Shown: positions 1-3,000 of the stretch, in pieces
Position numbering within the stretch: the stretch's first letter is position 1
Layout: each line of letters starts with the position of its first letter
DNA from: a virus
Lineage: Duplodnaviria > Heunggongvirae > Uroviricota > Caudoviricetes
Strand: one strand, 5' to 3'
DNA length: 9,053 nt
Virus record (IMG/VR): IMGVR_UViG_2695420595_000001
Made by a program: the position numbers

Positions 1-3000
1 CAAACGTCAGCGAGCTGGTTGATATGGTTTACGAGTATTGCCGGAAGCGAGGCCTGTATCCGGATGCGGAGTCTTATCCGTGGAAATCAAACGCGCACTA
101 CTGGCTGGTTACCAACCTGTATCAGAACATGCGGGCCAATGCGCTTACTGATGCGGAATTACGGCGCAAGGCTGCCGATGAACTGACCTGTATGACAGCG
201 CGAATTAACCGTGGTGAGACGATACCTGAACCAGTAAAACAACTTCCTGTTATGGGCGGTAGACCTCTAAATCGTGCACAGGCTCTGGCGAAGATCGCAG
301 AAATTAAAGCTAAGTTCGGACTGAAAGGAGCAAGTGTATGACGGGCAAAGAGGCAATTATTCATTACCTGGGGACGCATAATAGCTTCTGTGCGCCGGAC
401 GTTGCCGCGCTAACAGGCGCAACAGTAACCAGCATAAATCAGGCCGCGGCTAAAATGGCACGTGCAGGTCTTCTGGTTATCGAAGGTAAGGTCTGGCGAA
501 CGGTGTATTACCGGTTTGCTACCAGGGAAGAACGGGAAGGAAAGATGAGCACGAACCTGATTTTTAAGGAGTGTCGCCAGAGTGCCGCGATGAAACGGGT
601 ATTGGCGGTATATGGAGTTAAAAGATGACCATCTACATTACTGAGCTAATAACAGGCCTGCTGGTAATCGCAGGCCTTTTTATTTGGGGGAGAGGGAAGT
701 CATGAAAAAACTAACCTTTGAAATTCGATCTCCAGCACATCAGCAAAACGCTATTCACGCAGTACAGCAAATCCTTCCAGACCCAACCAAACCAATCGTA
801 GTAACCATTCAGGAACGCAACCGCAGCTTAGACCAAAACAGGAAGCTATGGGCCTGCTTAGGTGACGTCTCTCGTCAGGTTGAATGGCATGGTCGCTGGC
901 TGGATGCAGAAAGCTGGAAGTGTGTGTTTACCGCAGCATTAAAGCAGCAGGATGTTGTTCCTAACCTTGCCGGGAATGGCTTTGTGGTAATAGGCCAGTC
1001 AACCAGCAGGATGCGTGTAAACGAATTTGCGGAGCTATTAGAGCTTATACAGGCATTCGGTACAGAGCGTGGCGTTAAGTGGTCAGACGAAGCGCGACTG
1101 GCTCTCGAATGGAAAGCGCGATGGGGAGATCGGGCTGCATGACTATCAAATCAAATACGCCAGCACACGACAAGGACTGCTGGCAAACGCCGCTTTGGCT
1201 TTTTGATGCACTGGATATTGAGTTTGGATTCTGGCTGGATTCGGCAGCGAGCGACAAAAATGCTCTGTGTGCTCACTGGCTAACTGAGGCCGACGACGCG
1301 CTCAATTCTGAGTGGGTAAGCCACGGTGCAATCTGGAATAACCCACCGTACAGCAATATCAGGCCGTGGGTGGAAAAAGCTGCTGAGCAGTGCATACAAC
1401 AGCGACAGACGGTAGTTATGCTTGTGCCAGAGGATATGTCAGTCGGATGGTTCAGCAAGGCTCTGGAGAGTGTCGACGAAGTTCGCATTATCACTGATGG
1501 ACGGATTAATTTTATCGAACCATCGACAGGGCTGGAGAAGAAGGGAAACAGTAAAGGCTCCATGCTGCTGATTTGGCGACCGTTCATCAGTCCTCGACGG
1601 ATGTTTACTACCGTATCCAAAGCGGCATTGATGGCGATCGGGCAGGGCGTCAGGAGGGCGGCATGAGGCGACAGCGACGAAGTTTCACCGACATCATCTG
1701 CGAAAACTGCAAATACCTTCCAACGAAACGCTCCAGAAATAAACGCAAGCCAATCCCAAAAGAATCTGACGTAAAAACCTTCAANNNNNNNAAAGCTAAG
1801 TTCGGACTGAAAGGAGCAAGTCTATGACGGGCAAAGAAGCAATTATTCATTATCTGGAGACGCACAAGAGCTTCTGTGCGCCGGACGTTGCCGCGCTAAC
1901 AGGCGCAACAGTAACCAGCATAAATCAGGCCGCGGCTAAAATGGCACGTGCAGGTCTTCTGGTTATCGAAGGTAAGGTCTGGCGAACGGTGTATTACCGG
2001 TTTGCTACCAGGGAAGAACGGGAAGGAAAGATGAGCACGAACCTGATTTTTAAGGAGTGTCGCCAGAGTGCCGCGATGAAACGGGTATTGGCGGTATATG
2101 GAGTTAAAAGGTGACCATCTACATCACTGAGCTAATAACAGGCCTGCTGGTAATCGCAGGCCTTTTTATTTGGGGGAGAGTAAATCGTGGTTGAGTTGAT
2201 TTTTTCTGCATTGAGGATTCTCGGTGCTATGTGGATGGTGTCGACGTTCATTGCGGTTGTCGGAAGTTTTGTCCGGTTGGTAGGCGAAGGTAAAGACCTG
2301 GTGGGTGTGCTGTTCGGTAGCATTCTCCTGTGGGTGATTATCGGTGTTGCGCCTGTCGCTGTAGCAAAAATGGCGTGGCGTTTTGTGAGTTGAGGTGACA
2401 ATGAAGCAAATATACATGCTTCGCAACGAAGCAATCAGAAACAACGCCATAGACGCAATACTCTCACTTCCGATCGACGACAAGTCACCTCACGAAGTCC
2501 ACATTAAAGAACCAAAGCGGAGCAATCCTCAAAACCGCCTTATGTGGGCGTTATTGCAGGACGTATCACGTCAGGTGCTTTGGCATGGACAGAGACTTGC
2601 GCCGGAGGACTGGAAAGACCTGTTCACTGCCCTGTGGCTTAAGACCAAAAAACTGGAGCAACGAAGTGTGCCTGGTATCGATGGTGGCGTTGTCATGCTT
2701 GGCGTGCGTACCAGCAAAATGCGAAAGGCCAGCATGACTGAGCTTATCGAAATCATGTTTTGGTTCGGCTCAGAGCGCAACGTGCGGTGGAGTGATGACT
2801 CCCGGCGAGAGTATGAATGGTCACAACGAAAAGGTAGGGCTGCATGACTATCAAATCAAATACACCAGCACACGACAAGGACTGCTGGCAAACGCCGCTT
2901 TGGCTTTTTGATGCGCTGGATATTGAGTTTGGATTCTGGCTGGATTCAGCTGCGAGCGACAAAAATGCTCTGTGCGCTCACTGGCTAACTGAGGCCGACG

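What the first reader, a model, noticed from the sequence alone, without database searches (positions are those of the whole stretch)
2401..2850. ninB allelic replacement with a sharp recombination junction at the ninB/methyltransferase overlap
The two ninB copies are only roughly half identical at the protein level, but identity resumes abruptly at the last few codons (GCTGCATGACTATCAAATCAAATAC...), and the downstream methyltransferase and ninE are essentially identical. This is a clear example of module exchange at a gene boundary, with the shared ATGA overlap region acting as the crossover point.
Basis: seen in the sequence. Interest (0 to 1): 0.4.

Follow-up and report, generated by a model that had tools for sequence, protein, structure and literature searches.

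The report
Known ninB gene swap between prophages
Two lambda-like prophages of one E. coli genome, artificially joined in this window by a 7-N gap, carry different old versions of the recombination gene ninB between nearly identical neighbouring genes, which is a correct but textbook example of phage gene shuffling at gene boundaries.

Summary
Windows 306-694 and 1792-2180 are 97.9% identical, and 1132-1784 and 2837-3489 are 98.2% identical. The ninB genes between them share only 54% of bases and 46-48% of residues. Identity resumes at GGGCTGCATGA (2837-2847), which holds the last three ninB codons and the overlapping stop and start codons.

Three corrections apply:
- The two copies are not neighbours. 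The window is two pieces joined by NNNNNNN (1785-1791). In closed E. coli genomes the pieces lie in separate lambdoid prophages about 1.6 Mb apart.
- The replaced segment is longer than reported (2181-2836). It also contains a 68-aa ORF, and its left junction lies just after the lambda tR2 terminator and a shared ribosome-binding site.
- The right junction recurs widely. The same core joins either ninB allele to the Dam-type methyltransferase, ninE or ninC. All four combinations of the two ninB alleles with methyltransferase or ninE exist. The methyltransferase itself sits between 12-nt direct repeats of the core.

This matches the published picture: 933W-type versus lambda/HK97-type ninB, ATGA-coupled nin genes, and the "boundary sequence" model of phage mosaicism. 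It is real, well explained and already known, so interest is low.

The parts
24..341 (+). Piece A: 3' part of replication gene P
   Evidence: Pfam Phage_lambda_P, 69.4 bits. Annotated as replication protein P in NZ_CP030939.1.
338..628 (+). Piece A: ren
   Evidence: PHROG 142, Ren-like exclusion protein. RefSeq calls it 'protein ren'.
654..687 (+). Piece A: lambda tR2-type intrinsic terminator hairpin plus T-run
   Evidence: Found by the terminator scan. The sequence is identical to lambda between ren and ninB.
695..1131 (+). Piece A: heterologous segment (ninB allele 1 cassette)
   Evidence: It aligns at about 50% identity with 2181-2836, whereas the flanks are 98% identical.
702..1142 (+). 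ninB/orf allele 1 (lambda/HK97 type), 146 aa
   Evidence: Pfam NinB, 184 bits. Its 3' end is shared with lambda ninB. The adjacent methyltransferase matches HK97, HK544, SfI and 1H12, whose records annotate a NinB there but do not match the allele-2 query over ninB.
1131..1142 (+). Boundary core CGGGCTGCATGA (last ninB codons, stop, methyltransferase start)
1139..1666 (+). Piece A: phage Dam-type N6-adenine methyltransferase
   Evidence: Pfam Dam (PF05869), 218 bits.
1655..1666 (+). Direct repeat of the core, AGGGCGGCATGA, at the methyltransferase/ninE overlap
1663..1784 (+). Piece A: ninE 5' part, cut by the gap
   Evidence: Identical to 3368-3489. The closed genome annotates a NinE family protein here.
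1785..1791 (.). NNNNNNN: scaffold gap joining pieces from two prophages
   Evidence: locates the N-run. The two pieces map 1.57 Mb apart and on opposite strands in NZ_CP030939.1. No listed complete E. coli genome gives a single-piece alignment across the join.
1824..2114 (+). Piece B: ren
   Evidence: RefSeq calls it 'protein ren'. It is 97.9% identical to piece A.
2112..2180 (+). 69-bp tR2 block (hairpin 2140-2163, T-run, GGGGGAGAG ribosome-binding site). The left junction is at 2180/2181.
   Evidence: Terminator scan. The fold gives -16.8 kcal/mol. The block alone is conserved in P22, ES18, ST104, HK97 and others, and is annotated 'terminator' in phage g341c.
2181..2836 (+). Piece B: heterologous segment (orf68 plus ninB allele 2)
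2187..2393 (+). orf68, a small hydrophobic protein of unknown function that assorts independently of ninB
   Evidence: PHROG 1165, E 1e-34. It occurs with ninB1 (L055) and without ninB2 (phages Kapi1 and mEp235).
2401..2847 (+). ninB/orf allele 2 (933W / VT1-Sakai type), 148 aa: the reported feature
   Evidence: Pfam NinB, 165 bits. Matches 933W, VT1-Sakai and AU6Stx1 at 95-96%.
2836..2847 (+). Boundary core AGGGCTGCATGA. The right junction lies within it, and identity to piece A starts at 2837.
2844..3371 (+). Piece B: Dam-type methyltransferase
   Evidence: RefSeq calls it phage N-6-adenine-methyltransferase. It differs from the piece A copy by one residue, and that copy scores 218 bits on Pfam Dam.
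3360..3371 (+). Direct repeat of the core, AGGGCGGCATGA, at the methyltransferase/ninE overlap
   Evidence: Loci without the methyltransferase (ninB joined to ninE) carry exactly one copy.
3368..3550 (+). Piece B: ninE
   Evidence: Pfam NinE, 145 bits.

Best explanation
The window is a scaffold of two contigs from two lambdoid prophages living in the same E. coli chromosome. Both prophages have the order P, ren, tR2, [X], Dam-type methyltransferase, ninE.

In one prophage X is the lambda/HK97-type ninB (orf) gene. In the other X is a 68-aa ORF plus the 933W-type ninB. The two ninB genes are old homologues, with third codon positions close to saturation. They sit in flanks that are 98% identical. 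The difference is therefore a cassette replacement by recombination between phage lineages, not divergence in place.

The cassette has two edges:
- Left: directly after the tR2 terminator and a shared ribosome-binding site.
- Right: inside an 11-12-nt core, (A/C)GGGCTGCATGA. This core carries the last ninB codons, the ninB stop codon and the overlapping methyltransferase start codon.

Inferred mechanism:
- This short boundary sequence is kept because it couples translation of the tightly packed nin genes.
- It has repeatedly served as the short-homology end of exchanges, while the other end lies in long flanking homology. Phage Red/RecT-type or host recombination would catalyse such events, and selection keeps only joints that leave both genes intact.
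- Once formed, the alternative cassettes are reshuffled among phages and co-resident prophages by ordinary homologous recombination in the conserved flanks.

What is shown: the anatomy, the abruptness of the junctions, that the core recurs at many junctions, and the independent assortment of the modules. What is inferred: which enzymes act, and that crossovers actually happen inside the core.
For: Abruptness:
- Flanks are 97.9% and 98.2% identical, against 54% nucleotide and 39% third-position identity in ninB.

Two prophages:
- Piece B matches NZ_CP030939.1 at 1.786 Mb (100%) and piece A at 3.359 Mb (99.9%). Each lies in a complete lambdoid early region.
- The two prophages share O-P-ren-tR2 (1976 nt, 97.5%) and methyltransferase-ninE (705 nt, 98.2%).

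Recurrent breakpoints in 430 phage records fall at window 2112, 2180, 2393/2401 and 2837.

Independent assortment in 94 IMG/VR loci:
- ren or non-ren upstream genes, orf68, the 933W hypothetical gene, Lar, and ninB1 or ninB2 occur in many combinations upstream of the same methyltransferase.

The core is shared by many junctions:
- ninB1-methyltransferase and ninB2-methyltransferase (this window)
- ninB1-ninC in lambda
- ninB2-ninC-like in L175
- ninB2-ninE in L172, L182 and L197, and in L206 and L207 with the GCA variant of the core
- ninB1-ninE in an E. coli prophage, strain 2013C-4465
- ninB1-ninD and ninB1 joined to an MT-A70-like methylase

Other points:
- The methyltransferase is bracketed by a 12-nt direct repeat, and loci lacking it carry one copy.
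- Other ATGA junctions in the window (P/ren, ninG/phosphatase, phosphatase/Q) do not carry this 12-mer. A general need for a ribosome-binding site plus ATGA therefore does not explain it.
- Mismatches in the shared left block are clustered (longest identical run 320 nt, P = 0.006). This fits ongoing homologous exchange in the flanks.

Literature:
- ATGA overlaps in nin regions, and a ninB that is 48.4% identical in DNA between phages L and P22 while several other nin genes (ninA, D, E, F, H, Z) are nearly identical (PMC8022706).
- Short conserved boundary sequences versus illegitimate recombination as models of mosaicism (PMC3029335; PMC3945230).
Against: - No experiment here shows a crossover inside the core.
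- The wobble base at -6 from the ATG (T with the methyltransferase or ninC, G or A with ninE) travels with the downstream gene in both ninB alleles. This leaves only about 4-5 nt (GGGC) of true common sequence for an allele swap. From my own knowledge, not tested here, that is much shorter than efficient RecA or Red recombination normally needs.
- The shared RAA tail could be ancestral conservation of the ninB C-terminus, since runs of 8 identical nt also occur inside the gene.
- Mosaic junctions also occur inside genes: allele-2 subvariants, a chimeric third ninB allele, and a methyltransferase N-terminal variant. Exchange is therefore not confined to boundaries.
They are not an unbiased census.
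Confidence: 0.8

Rival explanations
1. Random illegitimate recombination followed by selection (Hendrix model). The joints arose at arbitrary positions, and only those at gene boundaries survived. The ATGA core has no role in recombination and is conserved only for translation.
For: - Left-side junctions differ by a few nucleotides between phage pairs: 933W versus lambda one nt before the ninB ATG, and window B versus lambda eight nt before it.
- The usable common sequence at the right junction is only about 4-11 nt.
- The literature notes that conserved boundary sequences are absent at most mosaic junctions (PMC3029335).
Against: - The same 11-12-mer is present at joints of two ninB alleles with at least six different downstream genes, and again at the 3' end of the methyltransferase.
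- Independent random joints would not be expected to recreate it.
- Other ATGA-coupled boundaries in the window have different sequences.
Confidence: 0.25
2. Divergence in place. One ninB copy evolved very fast, for example under diversifying selection, while its neighbours stayed conserved.
For: The two proteins are homologous along their whole length, and both are full-length NinB domains.
Against: - Identity changes from 98% to about 50% within a few nucleotides at both edges.
- Third codon positions are 39% identical.
- Piece B has an extra gene with no counterpart in piece A.
- Each allele occurs nearly unchanged in many unrelated phage backgrounds.
Confidence: 0.01
3. The 'two copies' are an assembly artefact with no biological content, for example a mis-assembled or chimeric contig.
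For: - The copies are separated by a 7-N run.
- Both contig ends fall inside inter-prophage repeats.
- No listed complete genome shows a single-piece alignment across the ninE-to-P join.
- The join pattern was not found in genome contigs or viral contigs.
Against: Only the side-by-side placement is artefactual. Each piece matches closed genomes at 99.8-100% over its full length, inside well-formed prophages. Both ninB arrangements are widespread.
Confidence: 0.03
4. Replacement driven by a homing endonuclease. A mobile HNH gene cut near the ninB 3' end, and repair copied flanking donor sequence, which produced the sharp edge.
For: - Five IMG/VR loci and phages such as P27 and PA28 have an HNH gene between ninB and the methyltransferase. 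In the five loci it ends with the last 30 nt of ninB1.
- The Orf family is reported to include HNH fusions (abstract of PMC4118853).
Against: Neither prophage in the window has an HNH gene at this site. The nearest one (6377-6943) is 3.5 kb away. The heterology spans the whole ninB gene plus orf68, not a tract around a cut site.
Confidence: 0.05

Closest known systems
Phage 933W, VT1-Sakai and Stx1 phage AU6Stx1 early-right regions (ren, ..., NinB, Dam-type methyltransferase)
   Same: They carry the same ninB allele 2 and the same ninB/methyltransferase junction, AGGGCTGCATGACTATC, at 95-96% DNA identity. AU6Stx1 also carries the 590-aa ORF of the downstream island.
   Different: 933W has a hypothetical gene plus a Lar-like gene between tR2 and ninB where this window has orf68. 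It also has a truncated ninE followed by different genes.
Phages HK97, HK544, SfI and 1H12 (ninB allele 1 followed by the Dam-type methyltransferase)
   Same: They have the same arrangement as piece A. The methyltransferase and the tR2 block are 97-98% identical.
   Different: Their replication genes upstream of tR2 differ in HK97. They have no second allele.
Phage lambda nin region (ren, tR2, ninB, ninC, ninD, ninE)
   Same: The ren-tR2-ninB interval is essentially the same as piece A. ninB ends in AGGGCTGCATGA, overlapping the next start codon.
   Different: In lambda the downstream genes are ninC and ninD instead of the methyltransferase. Similarity to the window stops right after ATGA and resumes at codon 2 of ninE.
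ninB of Salmonella phage L versus P22 (Zaworski et al. 2021, PMC8022706)
   Same: This is a published case of the same pattern. ninB shares 48.4% DNA identity between the two phages, while ninA, D, E, F, H and Z are almost identical. ATGA overlaps are noted throughout nin regions.
   Different: The host and phage type (P22-like) differ. I did not compare the phage L allele with the two alleles here.
'Boundary sequence' / linker model of lambdoid mosaicism (Susskind and Botstein 1978; Clark et al. 2001, as cited in PMC3029335 and PMC3945230)
   Same: A short conserved sequence at a gene boundary is shared by otherwise unrelated neighbours, and identity changes abruptly there.
   Different: Clark et al. 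2001 is not in the held library. I could not check whether this exact ninB 3' core is among their examples.

Membership tests
NinB/Orf recombination mediator family (Pfam PF05772, PHROG 72) | Full-length match to the family profile above the curated threshold | tested here: met
   Allele 1 scores 184.1 bits and allele 2 scores 165.4 bits, against a cut-off of 23.8. Both also match PHROG 72.
NinB/Orf recombination mediator family (Pfam PF05772, PHROG 72) | Binding of single-stranded DNA and SSB, and substitution for RecFOR in lambda crosses | not testable with these tools
   These properties are known for lambda Orf from the literature (PMC3945230; PMC4118853). They have not been assayed for allele 2.
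Phage Dam-type N6-adenine methyltransferase (Pfam PF05869) | Profile match above threshold, and the catalytic NPPY motif | tested here: met
   218.4 bits against a cut-off of 28.1. The motif IWNNPPYS is present in both copies.
Lambdoid mosaic module junction of the boundary-sequence type | Abrupt switch from high to low identity at a gene boundary | tested here: met
   Identity goes from 98% to about 50% within about 10 nt at 694/2180 and at 1132/2837.
Lambdoid mosaic module junction of the boundary-sequence type | The same short sequence is present at the junction in heterologous combinations | tested here: met
   GGGC(T/G)GCATGA is present with two ninB alleles and at least six downstream genes, and also at the 3' end of the methyltransferase.
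Lambdoid mosaic module junction of the boundary-sequence type | Independent assortment of the modules on either side (four-gamete criterion) | tested here: met
   ninB1-methyltransferase, ninB2-methyltransferase, ninB1-ninE and ninB2-ninE are all observed. Both alleles also occur with a ninC-type gene.
Lambdoid mosaic module junction of the boundary-sequence type | Recombination demonstrably resolves within the boundary sequence | not testable with these tools
   This needs phage crosses and sequencing of the recombinants.
Lambda tR2 intrinsic terminator | GC-rich hairpin followed by a T-run, between ren and the first nin gene, identical to lambda | tested here: met
   Terminator scan. The sequence is identical to lambda. 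The fold gives -16.8 kcal/mol, but the z-score is only -1.5. Termination activity was not tested.
Tandem duplication within one locus | The two copies are contiguous in a real chromosome | tested here: not met
   An N-run lies between the copies. The copies are 1.57 Mb apart in closed genomes. No listed complete genome gives a single-piece alignment across the join.

The most novel reading that the evidence does not exclude
The 12-14-nt core (G)GAGGGCNGCATGA at the 3' ends of ninB and of the methyltransferase may be more than a translational-coupling signal. It could be a preferred recombination site that makes nin genes behave as insertable cassettes, each bracketed by a repeat of the core. 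Exchange would then be one-sided: anchored by long homology on one side, with a phage recombinase resolving the other side on only 4-12 nt of homology. The general idea was already proposed as 'boundary sequences', so even this reading would be a confirmation with finer resolution, not a new principle.
Probability: 0.12. Interest if true: 0.4.

Novelty: already known. Interest (0 to 1): 0.12.

Why it matters
This is a clean small illustration of how temperate phage genomes are reshuffled gene by gene. It also shows that co-resident prophages share long, nearly identical blocks that allow further exchange.

[quoted passage not shown] That detail is one core sequence reused at many ninB junctions, and a methyltransferase bracketed by a repeat of it. 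It does not change what is known.

Practically, the N-run is a warning. Apparent duplications in draft scaffolds of E. coli strains rich in prophages can be assembly joins.

Tried and rejected
- I searched for ninB allele 2 ending in the core followed by a base other than C, using the strict pattern CAACGAAAAGGTAGGGCTGCATGAD. There were 0 hits in IMG/VR. The pattern was too strict. The protein-based locus search then found ninB2 joined to ninE, a ninC-like gene and a methyltransferase variant.
- I searched for the literal join of the window (23 nt, 7 N, 23 nt) in genome contigs and viral contigs. There were 0 hits in each, so the source record was not identified.
- I ran a megablast of the two sides of the gap joined without the Ns against complete E. 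coli genomes. The high-coverage 'places' were all two-piece matches in the normal gene order, not true joins. Two of these were inspected. One is a ninB1-ninE prophage without the methyltransferase. The other is a decayed prophage with a 5'-truncated methyltransferase and an IS3 element.
- Rfam at gathering thresholds found nothing in the window.
- Clark et al. 2001 (J Mol Biol 311:657) is not in the held library. PMC9836094 on lambdoid mosaicism does not mention ninB or the nin region.
- Divergence in place, tandem duplication and homing-endonuclease replacement were considered and rejected or ranked low (see the rival explanations).
- I did not use the large protein-database searches or structure prediction. 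The identity of all genes at the finding was already unambiguous.
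Full report
**What is in the window.** The 9053-nt window is two pieces separated by NNNNNNN at 1785-1791.

- Piece A (1-1784) carries:
  - the end of replication gene P
  - ren (338-628)
  - an intrinsic terminator hairpin (654-677 plus T-run)
  - ninB (702-1142, 146 aa)
  - a Dam-type N6-adenine methyltransferase (1139-1666)
  - the first 122 nt of ninE
- Piece B (1792-9053) starts in the last 36 nt of P and carries:
  - ren (1824-2114)
  - the same terminator (2140-2163)
  - a 68-aa ORF (2187-2393)
  - a second ninB (2401-2847, 148 aa)
  - the methyltransferase (2844-3371)
  - ninE (3368-3550)
  - an AT-rich island with a 590-aa ORF on the minus strand
  - an HNH/AP2 endonuclease gene, ninG, a Ser/Thr phosphatase gene and an antiterminator Q gene

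**Checking the observation.**

- Alignment of the two pieces gives 381/389 identities for 306-694 versus 1792-2180. It gives 12 mismatches in 653 nt for 1132-1784 versus 2837-3489. The segment between is about 50% identical.
- The NinB proteins are 46% identical by BLASTP.
- In a codon alignment the genes are 54% identical overall and 39% at third positions. Only 33 of the 69 codons that encode the same residue are identical codons.
- The 100 nt outside each junction are 98% identical.
- Identity resumes at 2837 (= 1132) with GGGCTGCATGA. This is the last three ninB codons (R-A-A), the TGA stop and the overlapping ATG of the methyltransferase.
- The terminal 8-nt coding identity is no longer than two other chance runs inside the gene. 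The breakpoint can only be placed somewhere within the 11-nt core.

**The two copies are not neighbours.**

- In complete E. coli genomes the two pieces match at 99.8-100%, but at distant places. In strain AMSHJX01 (NZ_CP030939.1), piece B lies at 1,785,645-1,787,953 (+) and piece A at 3,358,637-3,360,420 (-).
- Nine genomes appear in both top-15 lists, always with far-apart coordinates.
- The annotated contexts are two separate lambdoid prophages. Each has its own exo-bet-gam, repressor, cro, cII, O and P genes.
- The two prophages share O-P-ren-tR2 (1976 nt, 97.5%) and methyltransferase-ninE (705 nt, 98.2%). Both contig ends in the window lie inside these shared repeats. This is what a short-read assembly break looks like.
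- None of the listed best-matching complete genomes gives a single-piece alignment across the ninE-to-P join. The join pattern is absent from the species-representative genomes and from IMG/VR.
- The side-by-side placement is therefore a scaffolding artefact. The two alleles are real.

**The full extent of the replacement.**

- The heterologous block is 695-1131 in piece A and 2181-2836 in piece B.
- Its left edge lies directly after the terminator and GGGGGAGAG. That purine run serves as the ribosome-binding site of ninB in piece A and of orf68 in piece B.
- The ren-to-ninB interval of piece A is identical to lambda, so the hairpin is lambda tR2. Phage g341c annotates the same block as a terminator.
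- orf68 belongs to PHROG 1165, of unknown function.

**Survey of related phages.**

- A megablast of window 1830-3300 against 50,697 phage records found 430 records. Match ends fall repeatedly at window 2112 (ren stop), 2180 (after tR2), 2393/2401 (orf68 end and ninB2 start) and 2837.
  - Allele 2 followed by the methyltransferase is the arrangement of 933W, VT1-Sakai, AU6Stx1 and many Stx phages.
  - Allele 1 followed by the methyltransferase is that of HK97, HK544, SfI and 1H12.
  - Lambda has allele 1 followed by ninC.
  - The 69-bp tR2 block alone is conserved in P22, ES18 and ST104, next to different genes.
- In 94 IMG/VR loci that contain the methyltransferase junction, the modules occur in many combinations. 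These modules are ren or other upstream genes, orf68, the 933W hypothetical gene, Lar, and either ninB allele. Examples are orf68 with ninB1 (L055) and ninB2 without orf68 (L008).

**The right junction at nucleotide level.**

- Among 80 loci encoding allele 2, the gene is joined through an ATGA overlap to four kinds of neighbour:
  - the methyltransferase (CTATCAAATC...)
  - ninE directly (GGCGACAGCG...)
  - a ninC-type gene (TAAATGTCGTT..., as in lambda)
  - a methyltransferase with a different N-terminus
- Allele 1 is joined in the same way to the methyltransferase, to ninC in lambda, to ninD, to an MT-A70-like methylase and to ninE.
- All of these junctions carry GGGC(T/G/A)GCATGA or a one-base variant of it.
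- All four combinations of {allele 1, allele 2} with {methyltransferase, ninE} exist. By the four-gamete argument, recombination has occurred between ninB and its downstream neighbour, and the only sequence common to the partners there is this core.
- The methyltransferase body is bracketed by AGGGCTGCATGA (2836-2847) and AGGGCGGCATGA (3360-3371). Loci with ninB joined to ninE and no methyltransferase carry a single copy, like an empty site.
- Other ATGA-coupled junctions in the window have different upstream sequences: P/ren, ninG/phosphatase and phosphatase/Q. The 12-mer is therefore not simply what any ribosome-binding site plus ATGA looks like.

**Limits of that inference.**

- The wobble base six nt before the ATG (T with the methyltransferase or ninC; G or A with ninE) stays with the downstream gene in both alleles. 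The sequence truly common to all partners shrinks to about GGGC plus ATGA.
- From my own knowledge, not tested here, that is microhomology, far shorter than efficient RecA or Red recombination needs.
- Junctions also occur inside genes: allele-2 subvariants, a chimeric third ninB allele, and a methyltransferase N-terminal variant.
- So the core is a recurrent joint. Whether it is a recombination substrate or only the survivor of selection is not settled here.
- For the two prophages in this window, the cassettes could have been exchanged by ordinary homologous recombination anywhere in the long flanks. The clustered mismatch pattern of the left shared block (longest identical run 320 nt, P = 0.006) fits such ongoing exchange. 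The right block is not significant (P = 0.07).

**Comparison with what is known.**

- The literature already describes nin genes packed with ATGA overlaps. It also describes a ninB that is 48.4% identical in DNA between phages L and P22 while ninA, D, E, F, H and Z are nearly identical (PMC8022706).
- The debate is standard. One side holds that recombination occurs at short conserved boundary sequences (Susskind and Botstein 1978; Clark et al. 2001). The other holds that illegitimate recombination is followed by selection (Hendrix and colleagues). Both are cited in PMC3029335 and PMC3945230.
- PMC3945230 and PMC2327257 argue for relaxed homologous recombination by Rad52-like phage recombinases.
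- Both ninB alleles are in phage genomes that are long established in the databases, namely 933W, HK97 and lambda.

**Verdict.** The finding is real and correctly interpreted in its main point. It needs the correction that the window joins two prophages across a gap, and that the replaced block is larger than reported. It is an already known phenomenon in well-known phages. Interest is low (0.12). The only mildly new detail is the nucleotide-level reuse of one core at many ninB junctions, together with the repeat-bracketed methyltransferase.

Noticed in passing
window 4054-5826 (minus strand), island 3601-6800: A 590-aa ORF lies on the opposite strand in an AT-rich island (GC 31-39%, against about 50% in the flanks) between ninE and the HNH/ninG genes. 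It has no Pfam, NCBIfam or PADLOC hit, and its only PDB sequence hit is insignificant (E = 0.39). Its only family is PHROG 9230, of unknown function. In the phage collection it occurs only in the Stx1 phages AU6Stx1 and SH2026Stx1, at 99.3% identity. It looks like an orphan accessory ('moron') gene.
   Followed up: partly
window 6143-6183: There is a perfect (TATTTC) hexamer array upstream of the HNH/AP2 gene. The window has 6 full units, and the otherwise 99.8%-identical closed genome NZ_CP030939.1 has 8. It is therefore a variable-number tandem repeat.
   Followed up: yes
window 1785-1791: A 7-N run joins contigs from two prophages that lie 1.57 Mb apart in closed genomes. Both contig ends lie inside inter-prophage repeats.
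   Followed up: yes
L053, L067, L084, L100, L121 (IMG/VR loci): In these loci a 200-aa HNH endonuclease ORF sits between a third, chimeric ninB allele and the methyltransferase. That ninB allele (138 aa in L084; read as 159 aa from an upstream ATG in the other four loci) has an allele-1 N-terminus and is then divergent. The HNH ORF ends with the last 30 nt of ninB allele 1 (KARWGDRAA, stop). This looks like a homing-endonuclease-type insertion near the ninB 3' end. Phages P27 and PA28 also show an HNH gene next to the methyltransferase.
   Followed up: partly
window 2836-2847 and 3360-3371 (also 1131-1142 and 1655-1666): The methyltransferase gene is bracketed by a 12-nt direct repeat with one mismatch. 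The repeat also forms the last codons of both ninB and the methyltransferase (both end in RAA). Loci without the methyltransferase, where ninB is joined to ninE, carry a single copy.
   Followed up: yes
L150, L173, L192 (IMG/VR loci): The same methyltransferase occurs with a different N-terminal 13 residues (MIKHKSETPKEVRD... instead of MTIKSNTPAHDKD...). This is a mosaic junction inside the gene.
   Followed up: no
L209 (NZ_CP116925.1, 3303399-3305385): This is a decayed prophage. ren is followed directly by a 5'-truncated methyltransferase, a truncated ninE and an IS3 transposase, and ninB is deleted.
   Followed up: no
window 6377-6943: An HNH plus AP2-domain endonuclease gene lies directly upstream of ninG and overlaps it. 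It lies at the right edge of the AT-rich island.
   Followed up: no
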